From Bifidobacteriaceae bacterium (GTDB lineage Bacteria > Actinomycetota > Actinomycetes > Actinomycetales > WQXJ01): a stretch of 64,000 nt of DNA. Under the pieces are notes generated by a model that saw only the letters and a program-made list of their open reading frames with translations, had not been told where the DNA came from and did no database searches. A program made the translations under genes and the position numbers. Shown piece by piece: positions 30,541 through 60,946 of the stretch. The stretch covers positions 22,499 to 86,498 of the forward strand of contig JAITFE010000067.1 of assembly GCA_031281585.1 (NCBI GenBank), read 5' to 3'. The number at the start of each line of letters is the position of its first letter. Positions within the stretch are counted from its first letter, which is position 1.

Positions 30541-31415
30541 GCGGCGGCGCGGTCCGGGTCGAGCGCGTAGCCGACCCCCCAGGCGGTGGAGATCAGTTGG
30601 TCGTGGCCGGGGGCGGCGGCCGCCAGCTTGGCGCGCAGGCGGCGGATGTGGACGTTGAGGGCGCCCTCGCCAACCTGGGTGTGGCCCCACGCGGCCACGA
30701 AGAGCTCGCGTTTGGGCACCACCTGGCCGGGCGCGCGGGCCAGGCGCGCGAGCAGGGCGTACTCGATCGCGGTGAGGGCGATGGGGCCGGCCGGGCCGAA
30801 CGCCCGCTCCAGGTCGAATCGGAGTTGGATTTGGCCGCACCGGAACTCTTGCGACGCGTGGGCGTGGGCGGGGTCTGCGTGGGTCCGGTCTGCGTTGGCG
30901 AGGTCTGCGTTGGCGAACTCCATGGGGGAGAGGTCTGCGTTGGCGAACTCCATGGGGGAGAGGTCGGTGGGGGCGAGGTCTGGGCCGACGAGGTCTCCGG
31001 CCTGGCGGGCCGCTGGCCCCGCCGCGGGTGCCGCGCTCTGGCGGCTTCGGCGCAGCACCGCCTGGACCTTGGCGTGCAGGACCGCCAGGGAATAGGGCTT
31101 GGCGATGTAGTCGTCCCCGCCCACGCCGAGGCCCAACAGGATGTCGTCATCGCCGCCGCGGGCGGAGATGAACAGGATGGGGATGTCGGTCTCGCGGCGC
31201 AGCCGCCGGCACAGCGCGAACCCCGACTCGCCCTCCAAATTGATGTCCAGCAGGATCACGCCGACGTCGTTGTTGGCCAAGAGGGTCAGGGCGCCCGCCG
31301 AGTCCGGCGCCCAAGCGGCCGGGGTTCCCAACATGGTGAAGTACTCGACGGTGGCCTGCGAAAGCGCGGCCTCGTCGTCAATGATCAGGCAGTCAACGCG
31401 CTGGCGGCGGCTCAT
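30537..31415 (-). CDS. OmpR/PhoB-family response regulator with an unusually long repeat-containing linker
   Basis: Receiver domain CLIIDDE...VILLDINLEGESGF...FISARG. The wHTH domain carries LNVHIRRLRAKL...ISTAWGVGYAL. The start was moved to ATG 31415 (MSRRQRVD...). Confidence 0.88.
   Translation of the reverse strand: MSRRQRVDCLIIDDEAALSQATVEYFTMLGTPAAWAPDSAGALTLLANNDVGVILLDINLEGESGFALCRRLRRETDIPILFISARGGDDDILLGLGVGGDDYIAKPYSLAVLHAKVQAVLRRSRQSAAPAAGPAARQAGDLVGPDLAPTDLSPMEFANADLSPMEFANADLANADRTHADPAHAHASQEFRCGQIQLRFDLERAFGPAGPIALTAIEYALLARLARAPGQVVPKRELFVAAWGHTQVGEGALNVHIRRLRAKLAAAAPGHDQLISTAWGVGYALDPDRAAA
30900..30959. repeat. perfect 30-bp tandem duplication inside the response-regulator linker
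   Basis: gaggtctgcgttggcgaactccatggggga occurs twice in tandem and encodes DLSPMEFANA twice on the minus strand. It is flanked by shorter degenerate ggtctgcgt units. Confidence 0.95.
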
Positions 31416-46653: not shown

Positions 46654-46857
46654 GATACAGGCAGGCGCTGCCCAGGGCAGCGGGCCCTTGGCTACTTCAC
46701 GTGGGACCCGAAGCAGGACCCTCGGCGGAATGGGCCAGGCACAACCCGATGGCGGTTGGGGCAATCGGTCCCGGACTCCGTGACCGGCGGTGCTCGTGAG
46801 CCGAGTCTGAGCCTGCCGTAGGCAATCAAGTGCCGAAAAGCGGCCTGGTTTCAGCCC

Positions 46858-49800
46858 AGGGCAAAGAAGGGCGCCGCACTCACGGCGACGCATCGGAAAG
46901 GCGGCTGAGGACGAGTTTGAATTCCTCCTGGCCTCAATGAAGGGCACCGCTCAAGAGCAGCGCAATCAGACGGCACCGCCGAGTTTGGCGGCTACACGAT
47001 CAGGCCTCAATGAAGGGTGCCGCTGATGAGCGGCCCAATAAGGCGAGCTGGCCCCCGTCCACGGCGCGCACGCGGAGCCTCAAGGAAGGGCGCAATGTGA
47101 AGTCCGCCCGAATGACTCCGAAGCGTTCATGGCCTCAATGAAGGGAGCCGCTGATGAGCGGCGCAATCCCGCCGGCGGACGCTGCCCAGGCCGGCGCTGG
47201 AATGCCTCAATGAAGGGCGCCGCTGAAGAGCGGCGCAATTTGGCCTTGCTGGAGAAAGTCGGTTTGCCAGACCATGCCTCAATGAAGGGCGCCGCTGAAG
47301 AGCGGCGCAATCCTTCTCACCATGACGGCTCCGGCGTCGTGAACTCACCTCAATGAAGGGCGCCGCTGAAGAGCGGCGCAATGCCACAAACCGAAATTCG
47401 TTCGTTTGTTCGAACAGCCTCTTTGAGGGGTGCCGCTGAAGAGCGGCGCAATACCGTCAATCCCCCCGACACGCCGTTGGTCCACCGCGCCTCAATGAAG
47501 GGCGCCGCTGCAGAGCGGCGCAATCAGGTCAACCCGACGGTTCAGAGGCCGCTCTACGTGCCTCAATGAAGGGCGCCGCTGAAGAGCGGCGCAATTTCGC
47601 GCCGTCAAAGAAGGGATCGGCAATGGTCGCGCCTCAATGAAGGGCGCCGCTGCAGAGCGGCGCAATGACGCGTTCGCCGGATCCGCCCGAAGGTTGCTCG
47701 GGCCTCAATGAAGGGCGCCGCTGAAGAGCGGCGCAATTTCCCTTCAGTCTGCCACAAGGATCTCTTCTCATGCAGCCTCAATGAAGGGCGCCGCTGAAGA
47801 GCGGCGCAATTTGGTGTCCCGAATGTCACGGAACCGATCTGCATGCGCCTCAATGAAGGGCACCGCTGAAGAGCGGCGCAATCTGGGCGTTCCGGAGGGT
47901 CAACGACGAGTCAAGCAGCCTCAATGAAGGGCGCCGCTGAAGAGCGGCGCAATCCGTCCACGGGCACCGTCAGGGAGCCGTCGGACTCGTTGCCTCAATG
48001 AAGGGCGCCGCTGAAGAGCGGCGCAATCGGGCGCTGGACGGCGGATCGGATAAAGGAGATGCGCCTCAATGAAGGGCGCCGCTGAAGAGCGGCGCAATCT
48101 CTTCCTCCCACACCACGTTGGCGAGCGCCTGCTCTTCGCCTCAATGAAGGGCGCCGCTGAAGAGCGGCGCAATAGCACCTGCGCCAGGCCCACGGCATGA
48201 CCGTCGAAGAGCCTCAATGAAGGGCGCCGCTGAAGAGCGGCGCAATGGGGCTGCTGGAATTGTCTGGTGGTGGACTAGCGGCCTCAATGAAGGGCGCCGC
48301 TGAAGAGCGGCGCAATTGCCGCTTCCCCCGGCGATGGCGGAAATCCTGCGGAGGCCTCAACGAAGGGAGCCGCTGAAGAGCGGCGCAATACGAATCCGGA
48401 CGCGTTGGACGATTGGGAGTGTTAGCCTCAATGAAGGGCGCCGCTGAAGAGCGGCGCAATCAATTTGAAGGCGATGTGTCAGGGCTGCCACCTGTTGCCT
48501 CAATGAAGGGCGCCGCTGAAGAGCGGCGCAATCCGGGTGAAGTGGTCGCCCAACCCATGCGGGTCCTGGCCTCAATGAAGGGCGCCGCTGAAGAGCGGCG
48601 CAATGGCGTGGCGGGGAGGCAACACCCTCACGGCCCTCAGGCCTCAATGAAGGGCGCCGCTGAAGAGCGGCGCAATAATGCTCGATGAGTTGTTCCCCGA
48701 TGAACTGCGTGCCTCAATGAAGGGCGCCGCTGAAGAGCGGCGCAATCGCTCCGACATCGACGGAGCCCTGGACGTCCGCGAGCCTCAATGAAGGGCGCCG
48801 CTGAAGAGCGGCGCAATGCGTCAGCGTCTCGCGGAGTCCGGGCGGAAGCCTGACGCCTCAATGAAGGGCGCCGCTGAAGAGCGGCGCAATCCGAGACGCG
48901 AACCGCAGAACCCGCTCCGTCAGAATGCCTCAATGAAGGGCGCCGCTGAAGAGCGGCGCAATACCTCTTCCTGCGCCAGCCGCAGGTCGGCGTTCGCGCC
49001 TCAATGAAGGGCGCCGCTGAAGAGCGGCGCAATGCCCGCAACGCCCGGTAGAACGCCTCCGTCGTGGTGCCTCAATGAAGGGCGCCGCTGAAGAGCGGCG
49101 CAATGCGGGTTTGGGGTTGACGCAGCCCCAGGCACGGGTGCCTCAATGAAGGGCGCCGCTGAAGAGCGGCGCAATTTGGAAGCTTTGGCATGGGTTCGTG
49201 CTAAGGAGATTGGCCTCAATGAAGGGCGCCGCTGAAGAGCGGCGCAATTTCCGGATGAAGGACGGGGCGTCGAAGGTGCGCCTGCCTCAATGAAGGGCGC
49301 CGCTGAAGAGCGGCGCAATTTGGGGGGCGCGGCTGGGGGCCGTTTCATGCGGTCGGGCCTCAATGAAGGGCGCCGCTGAAGAGCGGCGCAATAGGTCGCC
49401 GCGTCGGCGGTCGCGGCGGCGGTCGAGCCTCAATGAAGGGCGCCGCTGAAGAGCGGCGCAATCTCAGCACCGTTGACCACAGAACACTGAACTGCGAGCC
49501 TCAATGAAGGGCGCCGCTGAAGAGCGGCGCAATCCGGCCGACACGTACCGTGCGGCCGGGCTCCAAGCCTCAATGAAGGGCGCCGCTGAAGAGCGGCGCA
49601 ATTCGAGAAGAACTCGCCTATCGCCCCCCAGTTCTGGAGCCTCAATGAAGGGCGCCGCTGAAGAGCGGCGCAATGGCGACGTTCGGGAGTTACGCGGGCG
49701 CGGGGCTCACGCCTCAATGAAGGGCGCCGCTGAAGAGCGGCGCAATAACCTGCGGAGGCGCATTGAAACTGCCCTTTCCAGGCCTCAATGAAGGGCGCCG

Positions 49801-50955
49801 CTGAAGAGCGGCGCAATGTCCCAGCTCAGAGACGTGCTGGGACCGGTTTCCCGCCTCAATGAAGGGCGCCGCTGAAGAGCGGCGCAATGAGGCCGGAATC
49901 ACCGAGGTTCGTGCGCAGACCCGCCTCAATGAAGGGCGCCGCTGAAGAGCGGCGCCATCCACTCAAGTTTGACCGGCGCCGAGATGAGGCCCGGCCTCAA
50001 TGAAGGGCGCCGCTGAAGAGCGGCGCAATCCGTGGCGGTCCGGGCTTGCTGGAGCCGCTCCAGGTGCCTCAATGAAGGGCGCCGCTGAAGAGCGGCGCAA
50101 TACGATCACCGCCAGGCGGTTCGGAAAACACTGGACGCCTCAATGAAGGGCGCCGCTGAAGAGCGGCGCAATAACTCGATCCCCTCTCGCGACGACTACG
50201 GGGTCCTGCCTCAATGAAGGGCGCCGCTGAAGAGCGGCGCAATCTTGCCCTCGACCAGGGCCTCCGCCAGTTCGTTGTCGCCTCAATGAAGGGCGCCGCT
50301 GAAGAGCGGCGCAATCCCGACTGACGGGGCACGACGATAACAATTTCTCTGCCTCAATGAAGGGCGCCGCTGAAGAGCGGCGCAATATCGCCACCCGCGC
50401 CCCACAGGCGGGAGATTTGGGGCCTCAATGAAGGGCGCCGCTGAAGAGCGGCGCAATTCGAGCGGGTGAGGCCCGGCGGCGTGACGGGGGGAGCCTCAAT
50501 GAAGGGCGCCGCTGAAGAGCGGCGCAATGGCGCTGGGTTCATCCATGGTGACGACTGTATCATCGCCTCAATGAAGGGCGCCGCTGAAGAGCGGCGCAAT
50601 CCGCGACCAGCGCTTTTAACCGGACCGAAGCCCGAGCCTCAATGAAGGGCGCCGCTGAAGAGCGGCGCAATACGGCACCTTTGATCCCCTCACCCTAGTG
50701 AGTTGCCTCAATGAAGGGCGCCGCTGAAGAGCGGCGCAATCAATCCCCACCATCAGAACATTTATTCCTTGCCCTTGCCTCAATGAAGGGCGCCGCTGAA
50801 GAGCGGCGCAATGTGTTCCCGCCACGGGTGTCCCGCCGGGATGAGCGCGCCTCAATGAAGGGCGCCGCTGAAGAGCGGCGCAATTCTAGGGAGGTGTGGC
50901 CGACGTTTTCCCAGTCCGCGCCTCAATGAAGGGCGCCGCTGAAGAGCGGCGCAAT
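46858..50955 (-). CRISPR. CRISPR array, about 57 repeats of 36 nt (plus one more decayed unit), spacers 33-39 nt
   Basis: Plus-strand repeat is gcctcaatgaagggcgccgctgaagagcggcgcaat. Transcribed (minus) sense is ATTGCGCCGCTCTTCAGCGGCGCCCTTCATTGAGGC, with stem GCGCCGCT/AGCGGCGC. I located every unit from 46931 to 50920 at 69-75-bp spacing. Decay is seen at 47417, 47077, 46931 and 46858, and an 18-nt spacer remnant lies at 47114-47131. Confidence 0.97.
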
Positions 50956-51147
50956 AGTGCCTAGATTACACCGGTTCGGACCTGCGGAGGTGCGCTGGCG
51001 CGCGAGCGCTGTCGGAGAATCGGTGGCGAGGATGGGGCCTGGATGGCCGGTGGGCCTGATCTAGGGCTGTGGCCAGGGCAGATGTCCCGCGAGCGCCCGA
51101 GCACGGAGGCCGTGTCATCGGAGCGCTCGCGGGGTGCCAGCGGCCTG
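50956..51147 (-). promoter_or_regulatory. CRISPR leader
   Basis: 192-bp non-coding gap between cas2 and the first, perfectly conserved repeat. Repeat decay increases away from it. Confidence 0.7.
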
Positions 51148-51450
51148 CTAGAGGATGATCGCCTCATTGGGTGTGACTGGCCGGTCCCGGCCGATGAAAG
51201 AGAACTTGGATTCTTCCAGTGACGAGACTGGCCCCAGATCGCAGAGAAGCACAGAATCCTCTTCGAGATTGATTTCCGCTCCGACGGCAACCTTGAGCCT
51301 GACAAGAGCCGCTGGCTTGGCGTCAACGACAAACACCGAATACTGAACGCGGTCGCCGTAGGTCTGAAGGCACTTGGCGACCCGTGTGCGTCGTTTGTCC
51401 TCCGGAATGTCATAGGCGATCAGATACCTTCTGGCGGTGTCGGGTATCAT
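51148..51450 (-). CDS. cas2: CRISPR-associated endoribonuclease Cas2
   Basis: 100 aa (RYLIAYDIPEDKRRTRVAKCLQTYGDRVQYSVF). It has a 4-nt overlap with cas4/cas1. Confidence 0.92.
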   Translation of the reverse strand: MIPDTARRYLIAYDIPEDKRRTRVAKCLQTYGDRVQYSVFVVDAKPAALVRLKVAVGAEINLEEDSVLLCDLGPVSSLEESKFSFIGRDRPVTPNEAIIL

Positions 51451-53048
51451 CGGGTTCGGACCCCGATGTAGCGGTCCTGCGTACCGTCAAGGACGCCAAG
51501 GACGAGTCGAGCTTGAATCTCGATTGCCCGTCTCCAACTGCAGCTGTAATCGAAGGTTGGGTGCACAAACTCGGTACTCACACGACGCTCGTACGCTGCG
51601 ATCAGAGCCTTGCGTCCCTTGTCGGTCAGATTGACGGCCGCGAGGTTCACCTGGAAATCGCCGCTGCGAAGCTCGCCGTTGTTGAGCGCCCTGACCACTG
51701 CGGAGTCCGCTACGGGTGCCCGGAATTCCTCGGCGAGGTCCAAAGCCAACGCGGGCTTGTTGCGGTTGCTGCTGTGCAGGAACCCGGCGTGCGGATCCAG
51801 CCCGCAACTTCGAACCGCGCGGATGCAGTCTCCCAGTAGAAGCGCGTAGGCGTAATTGAGAGCGGCATTCACTGGGTCGTGAGCGGGGCGGCGCGACCTG
51901 GTTGAGAACTCGAAGTCGGGCGCGCGGAGCATTGTGCCAAACGAGCCAAAGTAGAGGCCGGCGGCGGCACCTTCCACGCCAAGAAGTTCGTTGACTGACG
52001 GGGCGTCGGCGGCCTGGCTGGCGAACGATCTCAACCTGGCCACGGCTTCCGGTGCGTTGCCATTCCTCCTCAAGAAGGTCGCTTGGTTGGACACCTTCGA
52101 CGCCACGAACTCCTGCGCAAGGTCCAGCCGACCGGAGTGTGCGCTGGCGTACTGCAACGCTCGGGCCGATCCATTGGGCCCGGATGCCGAGGCGGCGTCT
52201 CCGACCACGCGCCCGGTGCTGGTGCACCACACGATGGATAGGCCGCGCCACAGAAGCTCCCGAATCAGACCTCCCGTGAGGTCAACGTTGCCATGTACTG
52301 CCACGCCTTGAACCCTTTCAAGGGGTATTGAAGCGGCTTCCTCTCCGTGCGTTGCCACGATCATTCGGCCGCTTCGGACGAACGCGCGGCTTCCGGGAGT
52401 GGCGAGGTGCACAATCTGCGTGTCTGGGTCGGCGACCACAATTCGGCGCTTGATAGACGCGAGTTTTCGCTCATCCGGCAAGCAGACGCTGGCATGCGAA
52501 CAGCGTGTGCATTTCGGATCATCCTCAAGTGGCTGTGGTGCTGTATCGCTCTCAACACAGGTCCGGGTGGCCTCTACTGCCGCGCGAGCGCGCTCGAAGT
52601 CGATATCCGAAAGCTCGACCTCAACCCGGCGTTTGTGTTCGGTGAAATACACGTACTGCGCGTGGACCCGCTCGCCCATGTCTATCAGAGCGGCGACCTG
52701 AAGAGCGAGTTGGGTGCGCATAGGTTGGGTGACGTCCGTGCGGCGGCGCACAGGCGTGGCCTTGTATTCGACCACCTCCAGTGACCCGTCCGGATTGACC
52801 TCGATCGTGTCGCATCTGCCCGTGTATGACCATCCCAGGTGGGCAACGTCAACGGCTCGCTTGATGTCGCGGCGACCAGTGCTCGGATCATCGGTGGCCG
52901 CATGGGAGGCGACTCCAACAGCCATCTGCCGGGTGTCTGTGCGCTCGCCAGCGGCCTCCAGCCAGGCGCGACGTGGGCAGAACTCGTGATGGGCGACCAA
53001 GCTGATCGTAACGGCATCGCCCCGCTCGGTTGCTTGGTGGTCGCTCAT
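51447..53048 (-). CDS. cas1: Cas4-Cas1 fusion protein
   Basis: The N-terminal part is a Cas4 RecB-type nuclease with Cys cluster (HHEFCPRRAW ... CTRCSHASVC). The C-terminal part is Cas1 (GLDPHAGFLHS). Confidence 0.92.
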   Translation of the reverse strand: MSDHQATERGDAVTISLVAHHEFCPRRAWLEAAGERTDTRQMAVGVASHAATDDPSTGRRDIKRAVDVAHLGWSYTGRCDTIEVNPDGSLEVVEYKATPVRRRTDVTQPMRTQLALQVAALIDMGERVHAQYVYFTEHKRRVEVELSDIDFERARAAVEATRTCVESDTAPQPLEDDPKCTRCSHASVCLPDERKLASIKRRIVVADPDTQIVHLATPGSRAFVRSGRMIVATHGEEAASIPLERVQGVAVHGNVDLTGGLIRELLWRGLSIVWCTSTGRVVGDAASASGPNGSARALQYASAHSGRLDLAQEFVASKVSNQATFLRRNGNAPEAVARLRSFASQAADAPSVNELLGVEGAAAGLYFGSFGTMLRAPDFEFSTRSRRPAHDPVNAALNYAYALLLGDCIRAVRSCGLDPHAGFLHSSNRNKPALALDLAEEFRAPVADSAVVRALNNGELRSGDFQVNLAAVNLTDKGRKALIAAYERRVSTEFVHPTFDYSCSWRRAIEIQARLVLGVLDGTQDRYIGVRTR

Positions 53049-54121
53049 CGGAGTTCCCCCGGTTCAATGATTTGCCCGAGCTCGGCCCACTTTTCGGGAG
53101 CATTCGGATTGTTGCTCCGGTGCACGGGGAACCTGACCACGGCTGGCGCTCCCCTGGCCTCGAGCCAGTCCCATGCGGCAAGACAGTCGCTTGACGATGG
53201 CCGCAGCGCCTTGGGAACGCTTTGATCGGGAAGGCCAAAGGCGCATACGCGGACCAGTTGCGGTGACCGCAAAACAGTCCGCAGCCGGCCCAGCGTCCAT
53301 GGCCGGGTCATCACCGGCAGGCAAAAGTAGCCGTCAAGATGACTGCCGAAGTGCGCCGTTGTGAGCGACGCACCAGACGCCTGGTGGGTCACGGACATTT
53401 GAGAAATCCCCCACAACGCGCACCAAGCGCGTGTGTTGTCAGTCTTCTCCGGCGCCTTCAGCCCGGTGGGTGTCCGTGAGTCGGCCGACTCCTTGCCGAC
53501 AATATCCAAGGTGAGCTGACCGCTCAAGCCCCCGGCCACCTCGGTCTCTGTCATGCCCGCGACAGCTGCGGCGAGGAGCCGTAGCCGATTGGCCATGAAG
53601 TCTTCGCCCCTGTTCCGGGTCTTCATTTCCCATCGACTGGCCCCGTAGTCCGGCCGGGACTGCCGCTCCCTGCTAAACGACCAGTAAGAAGGCTCGCCCA
53701 GGCTCCCAATCATGTCGAAGTCGAGTTCATCGAGTTCGGCCGTTCCGTCAAGAACCGAATACTTCCGTTCTCGCCAGGCCCGCGCGCCTTCTTGGTTGAG
53801 CGCCATCACCCTGGGGCTGAATAGTCCCGCGGAAGCGCTTTTCGGCTTTTTCCCGGGATTCGCCTGCCAGTCCGCTGGTATCTCGCAACAGATCTGCACC
53901 CAAGAGTCCGGCAATGAGTGGCGCTGGGCGTGCTCAAGCACTGCGTTCCCAAGTTCGTCCAAGGAGAGGCCCAACACGCGGACGCGCGACTCCAGGTCCG
54001 GCGTCCAGGCAAAGCCGACTTCCTTGCCCGTCACGGCCTGGCCTATCGCAGCAGCTCCGTAGGCCGCGAGATGGTCGAATGCGACCTTGATGTCGCCCTT
54101 CAATTCAATCGCGTCGCTCAT
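53045..54121 (-). CDS. type I-G large-subunit-position protein (Cas8g2/Csb3-like, assigned by context)
   Basis: About 358 aa from ATG 54121, which overlaps the cas3 stop as ATGA. It sits between cas3 and cas4/1 as in actinobacterial I-G/I-U operons. No motif personally recognised. Confidence 0.55.
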   Translation of the reverse strand: MSDAIELKGDIKVAFDHLAAYGAAAIGQAVTGKEVGFAWTPDLESRVRVLGLSLDELGNAVLEHAQRHSLPDSWVQICCEIPADWQANPGKKPKSASAGLFSPRVMALNQEGARAWRERKYSVLDGTAELDELDFDMIGSLGEPSYWSFSRERQSRPDYGASRWEMKTRNRGEDFMANRLRLLAAAVAGMTETEVAGGLSGQLTLDIVGKESADSRTPTGLKAPEKTDNTRAWCALWGISQMSVTHQASGASLTTAHFGSHLDGYFCLPVMTRPWTLGRLRTVLRSPQLVRVCAFGLPDQSVPKALRPSSSDCLAAWDWLEARGAPAVVRFPVHRSNNPNAPEKWAELGQIIEPGELR

Positions 54122-57078
54122 GATCCGCTCCTCGAAACGTTTGCGTCGGCCGCTCGAAGGAGGGCCTCGAGGTAGGCGCAGCCCCATGTCCCCCATTGCC
54201 GGTGTGTCCGCTCAAGTAGGGCGTCCCAGCCGCCGCGCTCGAAGAGAGCCTCTCGGCCCCGCAAACCCAATTCGGCGTCGGAGAGGTTTCTGCCAGTGTG
54301 TGGAAACTCGTGTCGGCCTCGGCCGTGGGAAGTGCCAATGAGCCGCAGTACTAGATCCGTCTGATCCAGAAGTGCGTCCTCAGCCAACTCCCACGCGATC
54401 GCTGCCGACAGTTGCTCGTGGCGCCATCCTCTGGGCAGGCCTGAGGCCGCCTTTGCCTGGCCGATGGCGCGTTGGCTTGTCATCCCGCTCTTGGCCAGCC
54501 AAAGGCCGGGATGATCCCCTTCGCGCCACCGCAAGAGACGCTGGAAACGGGGATCCCGTTTGCCTTCGTCGTGCACGAGTCCCGCGAACGACAGCGCAGT
54601 CACCAATTGGTCGGAAAGGCCCAATTCCCTTGTTAGCAAGCGCGCCAACCTTTCCACCGCCTGCTGGTGCTGGGCAAGCTGAACAGGATGACGGATCTCC
54701 CGTGGAGTGTTTGGCTGGGAGCCCTCGCCATTCAGCGCCTTGTCAGCGTTGGCCTTCTTGGCAGGGTGCCAAACCTGCAGAGACTCGTCATCGGCCAAAG
54801 CCTCAGAGCCCGCCAACACCACCCAAAAATCGTCGGGGATGCCCGACGGGCGTGTGTCGTACGCCGGGTATTCGGCCGGGACAACCTCGAGATCCTCAGA
54901 TTTCAGAAGGGCGGCCAGCAGGTTGAGGCGGTCGTTTCCACGGTCTGCCTCCGGCACGCTGGACAGCCAGCCGCTGACCAATTCCTGAACGCCGCCGCCC
55001 ACGTCCTCGCCGCCGGAGGCGGTCACCAAACGGTATACGTCGCTCAGCAAATCGACCGCGCCTGCGATCAGTCCGTCTTTGGCGCGGAGGGCCGGCGCTG
55101 ACGCGGCCAGGCGGACCCAGCGGCGTTTCGGGCGCCCGTCCGGGCCGCCCGGCAGTTCGCCCACATCTTCTCGCTCGTTGCCGTCTGCGGACTCCGTGGT
55201 GATGACGCCTTCTTGACGGCTGATGCTTTTCACGGAGTCCAACACCACCAAGTCCCCGGGCCGAAAAGCGAAGGTCGCCACGGCCTCCCTTCCCGACAGG
55301 GCCTCGATTCCCGAGGGTCTGACCACAAATGCCCTCCGGCGAGAGATTGACTCTTCGGGTGAGCTCGCGATCGTTCGCCACACCGGCAGGCTTACCGGGA
55401 AGACCTCGTGGTTCAGCGGCGGTGTGGCGGCGATCTGTTGGCGCGCTGACGTGTCGTCTTCTGGGAGGCCGGCTCGCACTAGGAGTCCCACCGCCAGGTC
55501 TGGGTCGAGGCTGTCTGAGAGCCAAAGGTCGAGCCAGGGCTCGGTCACGGGCCAGTCCCCAGTCCGCGCCCACTCCTTGACGTCCCAGCGTTCAGGTCTG
55601 TGAAGAACGCCGCGGGGCAATGACGCGGCGGGCGGTGACATTCCTCCCCCACGGGGATGGATTGACCACGGAGCGAGGCCGAGAGGCGACTCGGCGATCT
55701 CTTTCAGCCACTCATACGCCTCGCAGATCTCGGCACCCGCATACGGCCGGGTTGTCGACATGTCCGCAGCGGTCTCATCGGGCACGATCACGTAGACCGG
55801 ACCGGCGGGGCGGTCCCCTGAGCGGTTCACTCGTCCCGCCCGCTGGGCGATCGCCGACCCGGACGCAAGCTGCGTGACTAGGCATGACAGATTCAGGTCC
55901 ATCCCCACTTCTACCGTCTGCGTGGCGACGAGGACATCCACTGACGCATCTCCCGCCAGAGTGAAGAGGGGGCTGTGTTCGTTCCGGAGATTGTGAAGCT
56001 CGACTGGGCGCATCGGTCCGACCAACGTCACGACTTCCAAGGAGCGACCGAGCCCGGTTGCACTCTCGGATCGAGATCGCCCCGCCGGCGTTTGAAGTCT
56101 TCGGGAAACCGCCAAGGCAAGTTCGACCCGGTTTACCACACAGCCCACAGTGGACCCATGCTCTGCATGGGCCTGCCTGACCAGATCGGCTATCTGCCGA
56201 GCCATCATGTCGACGTCATGCCGCTTCGGAGACCACGCGCTGGTCGGAACGATGGTGACAGGCTTCGGCCGGGTAAGACGGTCAGCCAGCGTCGCGTCGG
56301 AGCCGCCTGCCTCCAGATCCTCAGCTTCCACGCCAATCTCCTGTCCGATGCCGTCCGCCTGAGTCGCCGTCATAGCGCAGACTCCCAGCGGAGGCACGCC
56401 GATTCCGGAAGACTCTTCGGTGACGAGCTGGCCGATCCGCCTGCCGGTGGTGACGAGTTGCCGGTTGAGGTGCGCCTCGTCCACCACCATCACGGTGTCG
56501 AACGCAAGGAGCCCGGCTTCGCGCGGCCAAGCAAAACGGGTGGAGCCATATCCCCGGAACAGGAGCCGGCTGCCGATCATGTCGGGAGTGCCCGCGATCA
56601 CCTGGCAGGCGGTCGGGGCGTCGAGCCATTCCCTGTCCGGCTTCGCGCCGCCTCGAAGCTTGGCCGTCACCAGCGGCATGTCAGTATGTTCTTCACCCTC
56701 AGCTCTCATTTGGCGCAGTGCGTTGGCCACAGATTGCACCAACGGGTCGGCTCGTGGATTGGCTAGCAAGAGGGCCAAACGGTCGGCTCGTTCGCTGTGG
56801 TCATCGACCAAAGCCCTTCTGTCGACTGTGATGGCCAGGCGTCTGGGGGGCCGGGCGGTGCCTTTGCCCAGTCCGGACCGGCATGCTGCCACCGCATTCA
56901 CGAACGCGTGAATCTCGATCACGGCGCTCTTGCCGGATCCCGTGGGCGCGTCAATTTGGTCTGGCCAGCGGCCCTCCCGCAAAATGTGCTCCACGAGGCG
57001 CATCTGCCAGGAGAAGGGCTGTAGACCGTGGTTCACTGCTCCGAAGAAGCGCGGAAAATCAGCAAGATGGACGCTCAT
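54118..57078 (-). CDS. cas3: type I-G Cas3 helicase with C-terminal HD nuclease
   Basis: Motif I DAPTGSGKS and motif II VVDEAH. An HD-like segment lies at the C-terminal end (LVHDEGKRDP...GTSHGRGRHEF), the arrangement typical of I-U/I-G. ATG 57078 overlaps the csb2 stop. Confidence 0.9.
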   Translation of the reverse strand: MSVHLADFPRFFGAVNHGLQPFSWQMRLVEHILREGRWPDQIDAPTGSGKSAVIEIHAFVNAVAACRSGLGKGTARPPRRLAITVDRRALVDDHSERADRLALLLANPRADPLVQSVANALRQMRAEGEEHTDMPLVTAKLRGGAKPDREWLDAPTACQVIAGTPDMIGSRLLFRGYGSTRFAWPREAGLLAFDTVMVVDEAHLNRQLVTTGRRIGQLVTEESSGIGVPPLGVCAMTATQADGIGQEIGVEAEDLEAGGSDATLADRLTRPKPVTIVPTSAWSPKRHDVDMMARQIADLVRQAHAEHGSTVGCVVNRVELALAVSRRLQTPAGRSRSESATGLGRSLEVVTLVGPMRPVELHNLRNEHSPLFTLAGDASVDVLVATQTVEVGMDLNLSCLVTQLASGSAIAQRAGRVNRSGDRPAGPVYVIVPDETAADMSTTRPYAGAEICEAYEWLKEIAESPLGLAPWSIHPRGGGMSPPAASLPRGVLHRPERWDVKEWARTGDWPVTEPWLDLWLSDSLDPDLAVGLLVRAGLPEDDTSARQQIAATPPLNHEVFPVSLPVWRTIASSPEESISRRRAFVVRPSGIEALSGREAVATFAFRPGDLVVLDSVKSISRQEGVITTESADGNEREDVGELPGGPDGRPKRRWVRLAASAPALRAKDGLIAGAVDLLSDVYRLVTASGGEDVGGGVQELVSGWLSSVPEADRGNDRLNLLAALLKSEDLEVVPAEYPAYDTRPSGIPDDFWVVLAGSEALADDESLQVWHPAKKANADKALNGEGSQPNTPREIRHPVQLAQHQQAVERLARLLTRELGLSDQLVTALSFAGLVHDEGKRDPRFQRLLRWREGDHPGLWLAKSGMTSQRAIGQAKAASGLPRGWRHEQLSAAIAWELAEDALLDQTDLVLRLIGTSHGRGRHEFPHTGRNLSDAELGLRGREALFERGGWDALLERTHRQWGTWGCAYLEALLRAADANVSRSGS

Positions 57079-58652
57079 GACCCCAACCTCCAACTCTCAG
57101 CGACATCCTCCGGCACGTCATTCGGAACCAGGAGGCCGCCACCTAGATGGCGGCTCTGCCCAATCGCGGCGAATGCCGTACCCGCGCCTTCGAGTTCTCC
57201 CAACTCGACGCTCGCCTGGTATGGCAGAGGCGCTAGACCCTCCGGAGTCTTGTGGACAAACCGCTCGACCTGGCTGACCGGAAGGGAGTGAACGCTCAAC
57301 ACGCGAACGCCTGCGGCGCGAGCGGCGGCCAACACGAGCCGGTAGCGCTCGCTCCCCCGCGCGGTGGACCAGTGGTCTTGGTCCAACTGATCCTTCCAGA
57401 CCAACCCAATTGACAGGGTCACCGCATCCGCAAGCGACCAGTTGTGGCCTTGGGCGCGCGTTTCCACAACGGCGGGTAGCACGGACCAGGTCCGGTACAG
57501 CCCGTCTTCCGGCGGCCGCCAGAAGGCGGCCGCGTCGACCAGCGCGGACCGGTCGGCATCCACAGAGAGCCTCACAGCGCGGCCGAGCGCGCGGATGGTC
57601 TCGGCCGCCATCAGCGCTTCTCCGATCACGGCAACGTCGGCGGGATCCGCGCTCCGGGGCACCGCCACCACAAACGCTTGGCGCGTTGGAATGGGTTCAG
57701 CGGTACAAGCCGAAGCGGACACGATCTGGATAGCCAGCCGATTCGAAGGCTTCGCCACGCCCTCGGCATATCTGCCGGTGAGTAACGAGGGAGCGTCTCC
57801 ATCGAAATGCGAAATCAGGGTCTTCCGAAACGCGACGCTGAAGGCCACGGCCTGTTCCCTGGTGATCCGTGCGCTGGCCTCAAAAGGAACCACCCAGCAC
57901 CATTCCCAGGGTCCTTCGGCTGGTTGCGCGTCAACACTCTGGAATCGTTCGATTCCCAAACTGGATGAGCAGACTGCGGGCGTGAGCTCCCTTTCATCCG
58001 TTTTCGAAGCGTCAGCGCTCACGGTGGGAACCTTGGCGCTGGCCTCTAGGTCATGGAGTTGCGAGAGTGCGGCGGTTCGGCCCCTTCTGGGGACCGCGAG
58101 GTCGAGCGAGCCCGGTCGCCGCGAACCGAGCCGAGCTCCGGGGTTCCGGCGGTGCGACAGGCGGGGCAATGCCGCGCGCTCCACTCTCAGCCGAACAGGC
58201 GAGTCCGCCTGGCCAAGATAGGGGACGTCAGGGCAGAGCGCCTCAAGGCTTTGGCGCACATCCGGCGGGGGGTCGGTCTCCCAAACCCAGCAGACGGAAC
58301 CTCCCAGCGCCACGCCCGCAAGATCTTGCTTGCCAATTTGCTTGATGCCGGTTCGTTTGGGCTTCAGCAAGCCGAGGTTCCGGTAGGCGGTGGCATCAGT
58401 CCGGCTCTGGGCACGGGTTGGCATCACCATGCCATCTGATGGGTTCTCTTCGATCCATTCCAATGCGGCGGTGTCGGCCGGGCACGGGCGAAGCGTTGAC
58501 TGGCCGGCCGTTTCGGCGCGGGTGCCGGAGCCAGCTGCGGCGAGCAGCGCGGCATGAAGCCGCGCCTGGGACGGAAACAAGTCGACCTCTCCCTGCCCTG
58601 TGTGCCCGCGATATGTGCCAAACGGAAAGGTTGCGACAATCGCGAAGGCCAT
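57075..58652 (-). CDS. csb2: type I-G Csb2 (Cas5/Cas6-fusion-type RAMP)
   Basis: 525 aa. The N-terminus (FPFGTYRGHTG...LFPSQARLHAALLAAA) matches my memory of the Csb2 family, and its position after csb1 fits. Confidence 0.7.
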   Translation of the reverse strand: MAFAIVATFPFGTYRGHTGQGEVDLFPSQARLHAALLAAAGSGTRAETAGQSTLRPCPADTAALEWIEENPSDGMVMPTRAQSRTDATAYRNLGLLKPKRTGIKQIGKQDLAGVALGGSVCWVWETDPPPDVRQSLEALCPDVPYLGQADSPVRLRVERAALPRLSHRRNPGARLGSRRPGSLDLAVPRRGRTAALSQLHDLEASAKVPTVSADASKTDERELTPAVCSSSLGIERFQSVDAQPAEGPWEWCWVVPFEASARITREQAVAFSVAFRKTLISHFDGDAPSLLTGRYAEGVAKPSNRLAIQIVSASACTAEPIPTRQAFVVAVPRSADPADVAVIGEALMAAETIRALGRAVRLSVDADRSALVDAAAFWRPPEDGLYRTWSVLPAVVETRAQGHNWSLADAVTLSIGLVWKDQLDQDHWSTARGSERYRLVLAAARAAGVRVLSVHSLPVSQVERFVHKTPEGLAPLPYQASVELGELEGAGTAFAAIGQSRHLGGGLLVPNDVPEDVAESWRLGS

Positions 58653-58654
58653 GA

Positions 58655-59878
58655 TCAGTCCTCGGGCGTCTCGTCAGCGGCACCGGCCAAGACGGCGGGA
58701 TTCCCCGCGACGTCGAAGCACTGGCCGTGCCAATCGAGGCCCGCAACGTGCGCGGCGTGGCTGATGGCGGCGTCCAAAAGGGCGTCGGCCTGCTCAATCG
58801 AGGACGGTTCCAATTCCTCAAATGAGCCGCCGCGCTGGTCAATAACCATGCGGGTCGGCCCCGCCTCGACCAGGTGGCAGTTGGCGCGTATGTAGAGTTC
58901 CGCGTTGGAGCGGGTGAGTCCGTTCAGAGCCAATGCCGCCAGCACTGCCCGCAGCGCCGCATCGCCCTCGGGCCCTTTGCCGAATCGGATTTGCCTGAGG
59001 GAAGCGAAGCTCACGACTTGGGTCCTGGTGACCGCGCGGCACGACACGGCCCCGAGTTGCGAGAGCGTCGGCGGGATCCCGCCGAATCCGAGCGCCGAGG
59101 CGCTGGCCTTTTCCCCAGCTTTCAGCTTGCGCGCGCCGTCAACGACCTTCTTGAAGGTGGCCGCGCTCAATTCGTCCTCCTGTTGTACGGCGAGGGCTTC
59201 CAACGTGGCGCCGTCCAACTGCGCGCTCATGCCGATCGGATCGACGCGCGCGCCGCCCTTCTTTGGCGTGGAACGCTCTGTCGCGCCGCCCTGGTCGGTC
59301 AGGACGCCGATGATCTCGCCGGTCACAACACTCGGCCAGCGGCCTTGCCTGGCCTTTCGCGAGGCGTCCCAGCTGCCTAAAGCAAGCGAACAGGGTGACA
59401 GGTTGAGCAGATCCCACGCGTTGGCGGGCGACGAGTCACGTGCCGCTCGGTAGGCCGCGTGCTGGGTCACCGGCTTTCCATCTACCGTGCCGGCGCGGAC
59501 GTGTGCGTCAAATGCGCGGTGAGGCAGTTCAAGGTCGGTGTAGCTCTCCACAAGACCGTCCCGCTCATAGGTCACCCGGATTCGCGGCAGGCGGCCGAGG
59601 ACGGCGTTCCCGTCATCGATGGCCTGCACAAGGGCGATCTCCATGCGGTTCCGGGAGGATTGGGCCGAGTCGATGAGGACCGTGTGGACGGCTTCCCCGT
59701 CTACGAAGCGCACTTCGTAGACGTAAGTGCCAAGGTCGCCTCGCGGCGACGCGTATTTTGCCGGGGCGATGGCCGCCTGCGGACCTGCGGCCGGCGCCAA
59801 CGGCGTGGTGGCGCTGAGGGCGCTGGGCCCCCCGGCCGAGGTGGCTTGCAGCAAGAGATTGAAATCGAGGTTTGCCAT
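58655..59878 (-). CDS. csb1: type I-G Csb1/Cas7g backbone RAMP protein
   Basis: 407 aa with PAKYA...VLIDSAQSSRNRMEIAL, resembling the Csb1/GSU0053 signature (DSvqSqaNR.E). It is the first gene of the operon, with AAGGAG 8 nt before the ATG. Confidence 0.75.
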   Translation of the reverse strand: MANLDFNLLLQATSAGGPSALSATTPLAPAAGPQAAIAPAKYASPRGDLGTYVYEVRFVDGEAVHTVLIDSAQSSRNRMEIALVQAIDDGNAVLGRLPRIRVTYERDGLVESYTDLELPHRAFDAHVRAGTVDGKPVTQHAAYRAARDSSPANAWDLLNLSPCSLALGSWDASRKARQGRWPSVVTGEIIGVLTDQGGATERSTPKKGGARVDPIGMSAQLDGATLEALAVQQEDELSAATFKKVVDGARKLKAGEKASASALGFGGIPPTLSQLGAVSCRAVTRTQVVSFASLRQIRFGKGPEGDAALRAVLAALALNGLTRSNAELYIRANCHLVEAGPTRMVIDQRGGSFEELEPSSIEQADALLDAAISHAAHVAGLDWHGQCFDVAGNPAVLAGAADETPED

Positions 59879-60004
59879 GATGGCAGCTCCTTAGATCGCT
59901 GGATCAAGTTGGCGCCGGTTGGTGCCGACTCCGAAGCTAGACGCCGCCTCTGACAGTCAAAAGAAACGTCGAGCTCGCCCCCAATAGACCAAACCCTACA
60001 CCAT

Positions 60005-60053
60005 GAATCCCAGTATATGGCAGACCACTTAGCGGCATGCTATGCTTGGGGTG
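60005..60053 (-). promoter_or_regulatory. putative cas-operon promoter region
   Basis: A TATACT -10-like hexamer lies on the minus strand at 60017-60012, about 134 nt upstream of the csb1 ATG. The adjacent 37 nt carry the seed match to the mini-array pseudo-spacer. No experimental support. Confidence 0.3.
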
Positions 60054-60193
60054 CCAGCTGGTCCTCATCTATCGGCTCGGAGCGGGAAAGGAAAGGGGTA
60101 CAGGCCAGTGCTCACTCGAACTGTTGTACTGGTGCGCCGGGTCGCTTGGGTCCGATGAGATCCCAAGCCACCCGGCGTCGAAGCAGCATTGCG

Positions 60194-60302
60194 CTGCGAA
60201 TGAAGGGCGCCCCGGCCTTGCAGGCGCTGCACCTTGGATGCCGCAAGACAAGAAGTGGTCGGCCATCCCTCAATGAAGGCTTCCTTGGCAGTCTACCCAC
60301 GG
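60194..60302 (-). CRISPR. degenerate two-repeat mini-array (psiR - 37-nt pseudo-spacer - psiR), possible regulatory crRNA-like gene
   Basis: 60267-60302 keeps cctcaatgaagg, which is 12 of 13 nt of the repeat end that forms the 5' handle. 60194-60229 keeps aatgaagggcgcc and a GCGCC/GGCGC stem. The units are 73 bp apart, equal to the array period, and in the same orientation as the main array. A weaker in-phase unit lies at 60121-60156. Confidence 0.6.
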
Positions 60303-60556
60303 GAACTCGCCGCAAGTTGGGCCGCGTCGGAACTAGTAATGAAATGGCAAAAGGCAGGACCTTGGCCTCTGTCTCGGGCAGTGGACACCACTTAAACGTG
60401 ACCATCAGATCACATGGCTATGACCTGCGGCTATGCCTCCCGTGCGCCCCGCGACTTGTTCGTGTGGCGAACATCACAGGCCGCGGGCCTACCTCGGCGC
60501 GCATGCGGCCGGTACGATTTACGGAAATTACTTAGCCAACGAAGGGGGAGTTGGTC

Positions 60557-60907
60557 ATGGCTGATAGGTCATTGCGGGGCAGCGGGATTGGGTTTCAGTC
60601 GCTGGAGTCCGAGGACGGCGTCGAGTTCGCTGAACGAGTCGAAGTGGCCTATGACTGCCCCGACGGCCACACGACCATCTTGCCCTTCGCCCTCGAAGCT
60701 GAAGTCCCGGACTATTGGCAATGCCGGTGCGGCATGGTGGCGATCCTCCGGGACGCGGTGAACCCGATCCTGCCGAAGGAGAAGCGCCAACGCAGCCACT
60801 GGGACATGCTGATGGAACGCCGCACGGTCGAGGAGCTCGAAGAGGTCCTCGCCGAACGACTCGGCGTTTTGCGCGCCCGCCGCGCCGAGCAAACCGTCGC
60901 CGCCTGA
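60557..60907 (+). CDS. rbpA: RNA polymerase-binding protein RbpA
   Basis: MADRSLRGSGIGFQSLESEDG...YDCPDGH...WQCRCG...SHWDMLMERRT is the characteristic RbpA sequence. GGGGGAG lies 6 nt before ATG 60557. Confidence 0.9.
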   Translation: MADRSLRGSGIGFQSLESEDGVEFAERVEVAYDCPDGHTTILPFALEAEVPDYWQCRCGMVAILRDAVNPILPKEKRQRSHWDMLMERRTVEELEEVLAERLGVLRARRAEQTVAA

Positions 60908-60946
60908 GGCGAAGGACCGCGCGGGGGCCGGGAAAGAACGCCCTGA

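What the first reader, a model, noticed from the sequence alone, without database searches (positions are those of the whole stretch)
60017..60302. Degenerate mini-array upstream of the cas operon whose pseudo-spacer seed-matches the putative cas promoter (CreR/CreA-like element in a type I-G system?)
Two units resembling the 36-nt repeat lie on the opposite side of the cas operon from the main array. They are exactly one CRISPR period (73 bp) apart and in array orientation.
- 60267-60302 keeps cctcaatgaagg. In the transcribed minus sense this is ...CCTTCATTGAGG, the repeat end that becomes the crRNA 5' handle.
- 60194-60229 keeps aatgaagggcgcc and can still form a GCGCC/GGCGC stem.
- A weaker unit sits in phase at 60121-60156.

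The 37-nt pseudo-spacer (60230-60266), read in the array sense, is ATGGCCGACCACTTCTTGTCTTGCGGCATCCAAGGTG. Plus strand 60017-60030 reads ATGGCAGACCACTT. That is identical at spacer positions 1-5 and 7-14 and mismatched only at position 6, the flipped-out position that characterised type I Cascades do not read. The match then collapses, apart from GGTG at positions 34-37.

Anchored at spacer position 1, I estimate a chance expectation of order 1e-4 for this ~600-bp region. The site abuts a TATACT -10-like hexamer (minus strand, 60017-60012) about 134 nt upstream of the csb1/cas7 ATG.

Seed-only complementarity of a degenerate mini-array to a nearby promoter is the architecture reported for CreA/CreT modules and Cas-regulating CreR RNAs in other type I systems. 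I do not know of a described type I-G example. The functional reading is inference.
Basis: partly seen in the sequence, partly recalled or inferred. Interest (0 to 1): 0.85.

Follow-up and report, generated by a model that had tools for sequence, protein, structure and literature searches.

The report
Self-regulating guide RNA for type I-G CRISPR
A decayed two-repeat mini-CRISPR upstream of this type I-G cas operon most likely makes a crRNA-like RNA that steers the system's own effector onto its cas promoter region; this is a known kind of self-regulation (CreR), so far only listed and never tested for this subtype.

Summary
The core observation holds. Outside the 56-repeat array, the repeat's 3' end (CCTTCATTGAGG) occurs only at 60268-60279. 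A second unit lies 73 bp away and keeps the repeat stem plus CCCTTCATT. The 37-nt pseudo-spacer between them matches 60017-60030 at positions 1-5 and 7-14. The proposed third unit is not a repeat. It is one arm of a strong hairpin (60135-60177).

The CreR-like reading is supported by comparison, not by experiment. Among 77 species-representative type I-G loci, 25 carry a solitary handle followed by a pseudo-spacer that seed-matches a site upstream of csb1. All 25 sites have a TAC or TAT 5' flank. Ten decoy motifs gave none.

Across 32 distinct pairs:
- identity is about 0.8-1.0 at positions 1-5 and 7-11;
- identity is 0.22-0.25 at positions 6, 12 and 18, the type I Cascade signature;
- seeds and targets co-vary between homologous loci.

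TAT is an experimentally validated PAM of the Bifidobacterium lactis type I-G system.

Transcription, processing, promoter identity and repression remain inferred. The element has no close relative.

Verdict: a new member of a known kind. CreR is shown for I-B, I-E, I-F and V-A, and type I-U (the former name of I-G) is only listed in a supplementary figure. Interest is moderate.

The parts
60267..60302 (-). psiR1. Only its 3' part is repeat-like: CCTTCATTGAGGG at 60279..60267. The last 8 nt, AUUGAGGG (60274..60267), correspond to the 8-nt 5' handle; the array repeat has AUUGAGGC. The stem part of the repeat is lost.
   Evidence: 12/13 in the last 13 positions, 6/23 in the first 23; unique in the window outside the array. 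One search shows no repeat-type hairpin. The 8-nt handle of type I-G is from PMC9638904.
60230..60266 (-). Pseudo-spacer psiS, 37 nt: ATGGCCGACCACTTCTTGTCTTGCGGCATCCAAGGTG. The seed is 60266..60253.
   Evidence: Array spacers are 33-39 nt long.
60194..60229 (-). psiR2. It keeps the outer repeat stem, GCGCCU (60227..60222) paired with GGGCGC (60212..60207), followed by CCUUCAUU (60206..60199). This is the part that becomes the 3' hairpin bound by Csb2.
   Evidence: searches (fold, -10.3 kcal/mol; gapped alignment, 22/29), PMC9638904.
60135..60177 (-). Strong hairpin 17 nt downstream of psiR2.
   Evidence: -43.5 kcal/mol for the 76-nt stretch folded, z = -5.5, 0 of 200 shuffles fold as well. (the arms occur nowhere else in the window). 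There is no U-tract, so the terminator function is inferred.
60014..60016 (+). PAM 5'-TAT-3' on the non-target strand, immediately 5' of the protospacer.
   Evidence: TAT is validated for B. lactis type I-G (PMC9335239; PMC12915315). TAC or TAT flanks all 32 class members.
60017..60053 (+). Protospacer-like target. Positions 1-5 and 7-14 (60017-60030) are identical to psiS, position 6 is mismatched, and there is no meaningful identity beyond position 14.
   Evidence: the only ATGGCNGACCA site in the window besides psiS itself.
60012..60017 (-). TATACT, a -10-like hexamer that overlaps the PAM and protospacer position 1. It is the candidate cas operon promoter; the TSS would lie near 60005, giving a 5' UTR of about 127 nt.
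   Evidence: sequence. The strict sigma-70 scan found nothing in 59700-60700, so the promoter identity is inferred.
58655..59878 (-). csb1/cas7g, the first gene of the regulated operon (csb1-csb2-cas3g-csb3-like-cas4g/cas1g-cas2, down to 51148).
46931..50955 (-). Main CRISPR array, 56 repeats. It is the source of the crRNAs that would compete with CreR. The leader is 50956-51147.

Best explanation
The element is a creR-type gene: a degenerate mini-CRISPR encoding a crRNA-like regulatory guide for the adjacent type I-G system.

**Proposed mechanism**
1. The minus strand of about 60300..60190 is transcribed in the same direction as the cas operon. The strong hairpin at 60177..60135 probably insulates or terminates this transcript.
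2. psiR1 supplies the 8-nt 5' handle AUUGAGGG. psiR2 supplies a 3' stem-loop for Csb2.
3. The RNA is loaded into the type I-G effector, made of Csb1 backbone, Csb2, the Csb3-like large subunit and Cas3g. In type I-G, Cas3 is a stable effector subunit and is needed for R-loop formation.
4. The complex recognises the 5'-TAT-3' PAM at 60014-60016 and pairs only spacer positions 1-5 and 7-14 with the target strand.
5. This seed-limited R-loop is too short to license Cas3 degradation, but it parks the complex over 60014-60053. That is the stretch immediately upstream of, and overlapping, the -10-like TATACT, 134 nt before csb1.
6. The parked complex represses cas transcription. As shown for CreR elsewhere, abundant crRNAs or anti-CRISPRs that remove the effector would relieve the repression.

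**Shown here**
- The sequence anatomy.
- The validity of the PAM.
- The family-wide signatures: PAM, every-6th-position periodicity and co-variation.

**Inferred**
- Transcription.
- 5'-end formation. psiR1 has no stem, so the 5' end may come from a nearby start site rather than from Csb2 cleavage.
- The identity of the promoter.
- Repression itself.
For: **In the window**
- psiR1 keeps exactly the part of the repeat that becomes the 5' handle, and psiR2 keeps the part that becomes the 3' handle. This matches the description of CreA/CreR in 10.1101/2023.03.10.532045.
- The seed match starts at spacer position 1 and its only mismatch is at position 6.
- The 5' flank is TAT, a validated type I-G PAM.
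- The intergenic ORFs lack the GC3 bias of real genes: 0.61-0.69 against 0.71-0.88. The region is therefore non-coding.
- No Rfam family matches.

**Across the family**
- 15 of 24 solitary handles have a seed run of 9 or more with a TAC/TAT flank. Swap and same-region controls gave 0.1-0.5%.
- 25 of 77 loci are positive, all 25 with TAC/TAT. Reversed and shuffled decoy motifs gave 0.
- Per-position identity over 32 pairs is 0.97-1.0 at positions 1-5, 0.22 at position 6, 0.81-1.0 at positions 7-11, 0.25 at position 12, 0.56-0.75 at positions 13-17, 0.25 at position 18, and random beyond.
- PAM position -1 is C in 26 pairs and T in 6.
- L096 and L097 are 89% identical upstream. They carry CG to TA at seed positions 7-8 in both psiS and target, while position 6 differs freely.
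- The Micromonosporaceae elements are homologous yet have different seeds, each mirrored by its own target. L023 and L071 differ at 4 positions, all compensated.

**Precedent.** The S. enterica I-E CreR target also lies about 140 bp upstream of the first cascade gene, and it represses 8.6-fold.
Against: - There is no expression or processing data.
- psiR1 has lost the stem, so it is unclear how the 5' handle end is produced.
- The psiR2 stem is weak: 6 bp with a 9-nt loop, no better than shuffles.
- No canonical -35/-10 promoter was found by the scan.
- A second promoter candidate lies downstream of the target: TTGACT, 15 nt, TAGCTT at about 59960-59934 on the minus strand. If that is the real cas promoter, a complex at 60014-60053 would sit upstream of it.
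- No relative closer than about 69% Csb1 identity exists. Conservation of this particular element is therefore untested, and three of the nearest relatives (L032, L108, L109) lack such an element.
- No protospacers were found for this array's spacers, so its own PAM is not derived directly.
- In the cell-free (TXTL) assays reported for B. lactis, type I-G Cascade without Cas3 did not repress GFP. Repression by a seed-only complex in type I-G is unproven.
Confidence: 0.75

Rival explanations
1. CreTA- or CrePA-like addiction module. The same guide represses a divergent plus-strand promoter inside the protospacer. That promoter drives a small toxic RNA or peptide encoded between the target and the hairpin. 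Control of cas is additional or incidental.
For: - The plus strand has an extended -10-like TGcTATGCT at 60038-60046, inside the protospacer.
- It is followed by an SD-like GGAAAGGAAAGGGG (60084-60097).
- A 16-codon ORF runs from GTG at 60109 to TGA at 60157-60159. It is rich in A/T-ending codons that are rare in this genome (ACT, CGA, GTT, GTA) and ends in the hairpin (sequence).
- In H. hispanica, P_creT and P_cas8 run divergently and flank the CreA target.
Against: - All of these features are weak consensus matches in a 59% GC spacer region.
- No coding signal is detectable.
- No similar small gene was noted in the other type I-G loci.
- In L096 and L097 the target sits 19-55 nt before the csb1 start, with no room for a divergent gene.
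- The plus-strand transcript would run head-on into creR.
Confidence: 0.12
2. Inert remnant of a decayed second array, or of an ectopic repeat insertion, whose spacer resembles the upstream sequence by chance.
For: - Both repeats are only 18/36 identical to the consensus.
- Repeat-like debris is common in CRISPR loci (Shmakov et al.).
- L020 and L021 carry homologous elements with no target within 21 kb.
- The nearest relatives lack the element.
Against: - Decay is not uniform. It spares exactly the two handle-forming parts.
- A 13/14 match anchored at spacer position 1, with the mismatch at position 6 and a validated PAM, has a chance expectation of roughly 1e-5 to 1e-6 in 680 bp on both strands. 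This is my arithmetic; one search gives 0.03 per 64 kb for any 1-mismatch hit.
- The same arrangement recurs in a third of type I-G loci, with 0 hits for decoys.
Confidence: 0.06
3. Intramolecular RNA stem. In a read-through transcript, AUGGCCGACCACUU (60266..60253) pairs with AAGUGGUCUGCCAU (60030..60017), forming a long-range 5'-UTR structure that affects cas mRNA.
For: The two segments are complementary on the same (minus-strand) transcript, 222 nt apart. L111 has a similar inverted arrangement close to psiR1.
Against: - The strong hairpin lies between the two segments.
- The fold of the creR region is not more stable than shuffles (z = +1.6).
- In many class members the target is on the same strand as psiS, so RNA pairing is impossible.
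- An RNA stem predicts neither a TAC/TAT flank nor chance-level identity at positions 6, 12 and 18.
Confidence: 0.04

Closest known systems
CreR (Cas-regulating RNA) of type I-B, I-E and V-A systems (Liu et al., bioRxiv 10.1101/2023.03.10.532045), for example the Salmonella enterica I-E creR
   Same: - A degenerate two-repeat mini-CRISPR in the cas locus.
- psiR1 keeps the 5'-handle nucleotides and psiR2 keeps the 3'-handle part.
- Seed-limited match to a PAM-flanked site upstream of the first effector gene. In S. enterica this site is about 140 bp upstream, much as here.
- No obvious toxin partner.
   Different: - The subtype is I-G. Its effector has no Cas5 or Cas8 of the usual kind and carries Cas3 as a stable subunit.
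- The PAM is TAT.
- psiR1 has lost the whole stem.
- A separate strong hairpin follows psiR2.
- Nothing has been tested experimentally. Type I-U is only listed in Fig. S7 of that preprint.
CreA antitoxin of CreTA modules (Haloarcula hispanica type I-B; PMC8501985, PMC9458426)
   Same: psiR1-psiS-psiR2 anatomy, partial complementarity to a promoter, and repression guided by Cascade. In H. hispanica, CreA also represses the cas8 promoter.
   Different: - No convincing creT toxin is present here.
- Haloarchaeal repeats are unstructured and are processed by a wrap-around Cas6. Type I-G repeats form a hairpin bound by Csb2.
Regulatory mini-arrays / crRNA-like RNAs of Shmakov et al. (10.1101/2023.03.03.530964), with the I-F1 example validated
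   Same: - A mini-array in an intergenic region of the cas locus.
- A target of 10 nt or more, with the canonical PAM, in the promoter region of effector genes.
- A mismatch at spacer position 6 is tolerated.
   Different: - In their description the repeat adjoining the seed is highly similar to the array repeat and the distal one is degraded. Here both repeats are about 50% identical to the consensus.
- Their main text does not mention I-G or I-U.
tracr-L and scaRNA (Cas9 autoregulation or gene repression by partial complementarity)
   Same: The logic is the same: a natural guide with truncated complementarity turns the nuclease effector into a transcriptional repressor of its own operon or of a host gene.
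   Different: These belong to class 2, use a different RNA architecture and are not derived from a two-repeat mini-array.

Membership tests
CreR / regulatory crRNA-like mini-array | A degenerate mini-CRISPR (psiR1-psiS-psiR2) inside or next to the cas locus, in which psiR1 keeps the 5'-handle part and psiR2 keeps the 3'-handle part of the repeat | tested here: met
   psiR1 is 12/13 in the last 13 positions. psiR2 keeps the stem plus CCCTTCATT. The spacing is 73 bp and the spacer is 37 nt.
CreR / regulatory crRNA-like mini-array | Pseudo-spacer with only partial, PAM-proximal (seed) complementarity to a chromosomal site near the cas genes | tested here: met
   Positions 1-5 and 7-14 are identical, position 6 is mismatched, and identity beyond is random. 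It is the unique site in 64 kb.
CreR / regulatory crRNA-like mini-array | Target flanked by the cognate PAM of the subtype | tested here: met
   The flank is TAT at 60014-60016. TAT and TAC are functional PAMs of B. lactis type I-G (PMC9335239). TAC or TAT flanks 32 of 32 analogous targets. This array's own PAM could not be derived.
CreR / regulatory crRNA-like mini-array | Target lies in or next to the promoter of the effector cas operon | tested here: inconclusive
   The target is 139-175 nt upstream of csb1 and overlaps a -10-like TATACT. The strict promoter scan found nothing, and a second candidate promoter lies downstream.
CreR / regulatory crRNA-like mini-array | Seed and target maintained by selection (conservation or co-variation in relatives) | tested here: inconclusive
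   For this element there is no close relative. For the type I-G class the feature is met: co-variation in L096 against L097 and in Micromonosporaceae, and periodic freedom of positions 6, 12 and 18.
CreR / regulatory crRNA-like mini-array | Transcribed and matured into a crRNA-like RNA that loads into the effector | not testable with these tools
   No transcript data are available. psiR1 lacks a stem, so the route to the 5' end is unknown.
CreR / regulatory crRNA-like mini-array | Effector-dependent repression of cas transcription, relieved by competing crRNAs or anti-CRISPR proteins | not testable with these tools
   This needs reporter or knock-out experiments.
CreTA / CrePA (CRISPR-repressed toxin with CreA) | A toxin gene (small RNA or protein) whose promoter is the CreA target | tested here: inconclusive
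   There is only a weak plus-strand candidate: TGcTATGCT at 60038-60046, an SD-like stretch and a 16-codon ORF. The region has no coding signal and no other PAM-plus-seed site exists in the window.
Type I-G CRISPR-Cas | Signature genes csb1/cas7g, csb2, cas3g and the cas4g/cas1g fusion, plus an array with a hairpin repeat ending in ...ATTGAGGC | tested here: met
   TIGR02570, TIGR02165, TIGR02621, NF049935; cas2; repeat and its fold.
Ordinary (second) CRISPR array | Two or more near-identical full-length repeats with a leader, able to acquire spacers | tested here: not met
   Both units are 18/36 identical to the repeat. The third unit is at background level.

The most novel reading that the evidence does not exclude
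The guide controls a pair of divergent promoters that share the protospacer. One is the cas operon promoter on the minus strand. The other is a plus-strand promoter (TGcTATGCT at 60038-60046) for a tiny toxic RNA or peptide encoded at about 60054-60160. This would make it the first CreTA-type addiction module of a type I-G system, with a new toxin.
Probability: 0.1. Interest if true: 0.7.

Novelty: new member of a known kind. Interest (0 to 1): 0.45.

Why it matters
**For the subtype.** Type I-G is the least understood type I subtype. Its effector carries Cas3 permanently and lacks a canonical Cas5/Cas8 for PAM reading.

**What the elements provide.** The family-wide set of natural seed-only guides found here includes this window's element. 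It gives, from sequence alone:
- the PAM (TAC much more often than TAT);
- the seed length (about 11 nt strict, fading by 17 nt);
- the every-sixth-position rule for type I-G.

It also implies that a Cas3-loaded effector can sit on its own chromosome without cutting.

**Practical use.**
- Endogenous type I-G systems are used for genome editing in Bifidobacterium (TAT PAM). An autorepression loop would set effector levels and could be removed to boost editing.
- Such elements could also be copied as natural designs for type I-G CRISPRi.

**Limit.** For CRISPR biology in general this extends an already accepted principle, CreR autoregulation, to one more subtype. It does not reveal a new one.

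Tried and rejected
**Searches that found nothing**
- Rfam scan of 59500-61000 at E up to 1: no family.
- Strict sigma-70 and terminator scan of 59700-60700: no promoter, and only an unrelated terminator-like site inside csb1.
- Deriving this array's own PAM:
  - the whole array against the phage records gave only chance-level hits, E about 0.3;
  - against plasmids it gave only a chance Phaeobacter hit;
  - four leader-proximal spacers against IMG/VR, with every 6th base free, gave 0 hits.
- Close relatives for a direct co-variation test:
  - the protein search gave at most 68% identity;
  - genome contigs gave at most 69%;
  - metagenome contigs gave at most 59%;
  - of four relatives fetched by exact protein look-up, two carry CreR-like elements and two do not.

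**Ideas rejected**
- The third repeat unit: it is at background identity and forms part of a hairpin.
- Coding potential of the intergenic ORFs (172, 79, 97 and 65 aa): rejected on GC3.
- A consistent -10 motif overlapping the PAM complement in loci whose target is on the opposite strand: not general.

**Literature checks left open**
- Supplements of the two key preprints were searched for I-G or I-U details. Nothing relevant is held as text.

Full report
**1. The locus**

The window comes from an uncultured Bifidobacteriaceae genome. The Csb1 protein is 100% identical to an NCBI/JGI MAG protein on a 103-kb contig.

On the minus strand lies a complete type I-G system:
- csb1/cas7g, 59878..58655
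- csb2, 58652..57075
- cas3g, 57093..54118
- a 383-aa ORF with only a sub-threshold match to the type I-G 'Cas3-adjacent' family
- cas4g/cas1g, 53048..51447
- cas2, 51450..51148

A leader of about 190 nt and 56 repeats (50955..46931) follow. In the transcribed sense the repeat is ATTGCGCCGCTCTTCAGCGGCGCCCTTCATTGAGGC, an 8-bp hairpin followed by the handle. Decayed repeats at the low-coordinate end fix the polarity. Upstream of csb1 there is a 678-nt gap of 59% GC, against 68% for the window, before the divergent rbpA gene. ORFs in this gap lack the GC3 bias of real genes.

**2. The observation**

It is correct in its essentials.
- The repeat's 3' end CCTTCATTGAGG occurs outside the array only at 60279..60268.
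- That unit (psiR1) matches the repeat at 12 of its last 13 positions and at chance level elsewhere.
- The unit 73 bp downstream in the transcribed sense (psiR2) keeps GCGCC...GGCGCCCTTCATT, which is the stem and the cleavage-site region.
- The 37 nt between them begin with ATGGCCGACCACTT. The plus strand at 60017-60030 reads ATGGCAGACCACTT. This is the only hit with at most 1 mismatch in 64 kb, and the mismatch is at spacer position 6.
- The proposed third unit (60121-60156) is at background identity, 13/36. It is the 3' arm of a very stable hairpin at 60135-60177 (z = -5.5; arms unique in the window).

**3. The comparative test**

No relative closer than about 69% Csb1 identity exists in any collection.

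Setting up the scan:
- In 80 species-representative loci plus 34 metagenomic ones, array repeats end in a conserved ...CTTCATTGAGG(C/G).
- A solitary copy of this handle within 800 nt upstream of csb1 is common, in either orientation.
- I took the 37 nt after the handle as a pseudo-spacer and searched the upstream region for a seed match that ignores every sixth base.

Results:
- 15 of 24 solitary handles had a run of 9 or more. Swapped-spacer and same-region controls gave 0.1-2%.
- With a looser handle, 25 of 77 loci were positive. A reversed motif and eight shuffled decoy motifs gave none.

Three features were not used in that search, and all three agree with Cascade binding.
- **PAM.** The 5' flank is TAC in 26 and TAT in 6 of 32 distinct pairs. 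All 25 seed targets found without any PAM filter carry TAC or TAT.
- **Periodicity.** Identity is 0.97-1.0 at positions 1-5 and 0.81-1.0 at positions 7-11, but 0.22, 0.25 and 0.25 at positions 6, 12 and 18. It decays to random after about position 18.
- **Co-variation.**
  - L096 and L097 are 89% identical upstream. Both psiS and target change CG to TA at seed positions 7-8, while position 6 differs freely.
  - Homologous Micromonosporaceae elements carry different seeds, each mirrored by its own target.

These signatures exclude a duplication remnant and an RNA-RNA stem as explanations for the class. In many loci the target is also on the same strand as psiS.

**4. The PAM question**

For Bifidobacterium animalis subsp. 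lactis type I-G, the predicted PAM is 5'-TAN-3'. Both TAT and TAC gave more than 2 log plasmid interference, and TAT is the PAM used for editing (PMC9335239; PMC12915315). The window's TAT at 60014-60016 is therefore permissive by the best available proxy. I could not derive the PAM from this array's own spacers.

**5. Mechanism**

The most likely reading is a creR gene.
- psiR1 provides the 8-nt handle. The handle length and Csb2 binding to the 3' hairpin are from PMC9638904. psiR2 provides the 3' hairpin.
- The downstream hairpin separates creR from the cas promoter region.
- The loaded effector binds TAT plus seed and occupies 60014-60053. This overlaps the -10-like TATACT (60017..60012), 134 nt before csb1.
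- Complementarity stops at position 14, so the target should be bound but not degraded.
- The S. enterica I-E CreR target lies about 140 bp upstream of casA and represses 8.6-fold, which shows that this geometry is workable.

Points specific to type I-G:
- Cas3 is a stable effector subunit and is required for efficient R-loop formation.
- In cell-free (TXTL) assays, B. lactis Cascade repressed GFP only when Cas3 was present.
- The repressing complex would therefore be nuclease-loaded.

Weak points:
- No transcript evidence exists.
- psiR1 has no stem. A TAGACT at 60296..60291 could place a start site a few nt before the handle, but this is a guess.
- The psiR2 stem is weak.
- The strict scan found no canonical promoter, and an alternative promoter candidate lies downstream of the target.

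**6. Rivals**

- **Toxin-coupled (CreTA-like) reading.** It rests on a plus-strand extended -10-like motif inside the protospacer, an SD-like stretch and a 16-codon ORF. All are weak, so I give it about 0.1.
- **Inert remnant with a chance match.** About 0.06, given the selective preservation of the handle parts, the anchored seed with PAM, and the family-wide recurrence.
- **RNA stem.** About 0.04.

**7. Comparison with what is known**

Regulatory mini-arrays are established.
- CreA/CreTA in type I-B.
- CreR in I-B, I-E and V-A (10.1101/2023.03.10.532045).
- An I-F1 example, plus a survey (10.1101/2023.03.03.530964).

The CreR preprint states that creA-like elements were also found by eye for I-D, I-C, I-E, I-F and I-U, shown in Fig. 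S7. I-U is the old name of I-G. The Shmakov preprint and later papers I could search do not discuss I-G.

This element is thus a new member of a known kind, in a subtype where the phenomenon has been listed but neither characterised nor quantified.

**8. Side result**

About half of the type I-G elements in other genomes lack a self-contained psiR2 hairpin. Instead, the sequence immediately 5' of the handle pairs with the sequence immediately 3' of psiS, for example over 15 bp in L031 and L035. This looks like a repeat hairpin split around the handle and spacer. The window's element is not of this type.

Noticed in passing
Related loci: L019, L023, L031, L034, L035, L039, L058, L065, L070, L071, L075 (upstream of csb1); L030 and L046 with a longer insert: In many type I-G CreR-like elements, the 8-20 nt directly 5' of the handle are complementary to the sequence directly 3' of the pseudo-spacer. 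An example is L035, GGCGGGAAGCGGTGG against CCACCGCTTCCCGCC. The arms resemble the 3' and 5' arms of the array repeat, so the repeat hairpin appears split, or circularly permuted, around handle plus spacer. I found no description of this in the CreA/CreR papers I read. Haloarchaeal repeats are unstructured.
   Followed up: partly
window 60135-60177: A very stable hairpin (-43.5 kcal/mol for the 76-nt stretch folded, z = -5.5) lies between psiR2 and the target. It has no U-tract and its arms are unique in the window.
   Followed up: yes
window 60038-60159 (+): An extended -10-like TGcTATGCT lies inside the protospacer. It is followed by an SD-like GGAAAGGAAAGGGG and a 16-codon ORF (GTG at 60109 to TGA at 60159) rich in A/T-ending codons. 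This is a possible divergent small gene (creT-like?). All the signals are weak.
   Followed up: partly
window 50956-51450: cas2 is the 100-aa ORF at 51450..51148 (TIGR01573, E = 7e-12). The 150-aa ORF at 51413..50961 abuts the first repeat and has no family match. This leaves a leader of about 190 nt.
   Followed up: yes
window 53045-54196 (-): The 383-aa ORF between cas3g and cas4g/cas1g has no Pfam hit. It has only a sub-threshold NCBIfam hit to the type I-G 'Cas3-extension/adjacent' family (E = 0.003). It is presumably the Csb3 or large-subunit equivalent, and it is very divergent.
   Followed up: partly
window 46931-47170: The trailer end of the array is decayed: repeats carry 2-4 substitutions, and a 92-nt 'spacer' contains a broken repeat. 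The last repeat overlaps the start of the mechanical 1067-aa ORF at 46947..43744.
   Followed up: no
L020 and L021 (about 500 and 240 nt upstream of csb1): These elements are homologous to the Micromonosporaceae CreR-like elements. Their pseudo-spacers have no seed match anywhere in the 21-kb locus. They may be orphaned guides, or guides with distant targets.
   Followed up: partly
L096-L105 and L085-L102 (human-gut metagenome contigs): CreR-like elements with TAC or TAT-flanked targets also occur in human-gut type I-G loci. In L096 and L097 the target ends only 19 nt before the csb1 start, and the psiR2 hairpin followed by CUUCUUUG looks like an intrinsic terminator.
   Followed up: partly
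window 29047-29306, 17523-17758, 30900-30965: There are tandem repeats unrelated to the finding: a 62-nt unit x 4.2, a 15/45-nt proline/aspartate-type coding repeat, and an exact 30-nt unit x 2.2.
   Followed up: no
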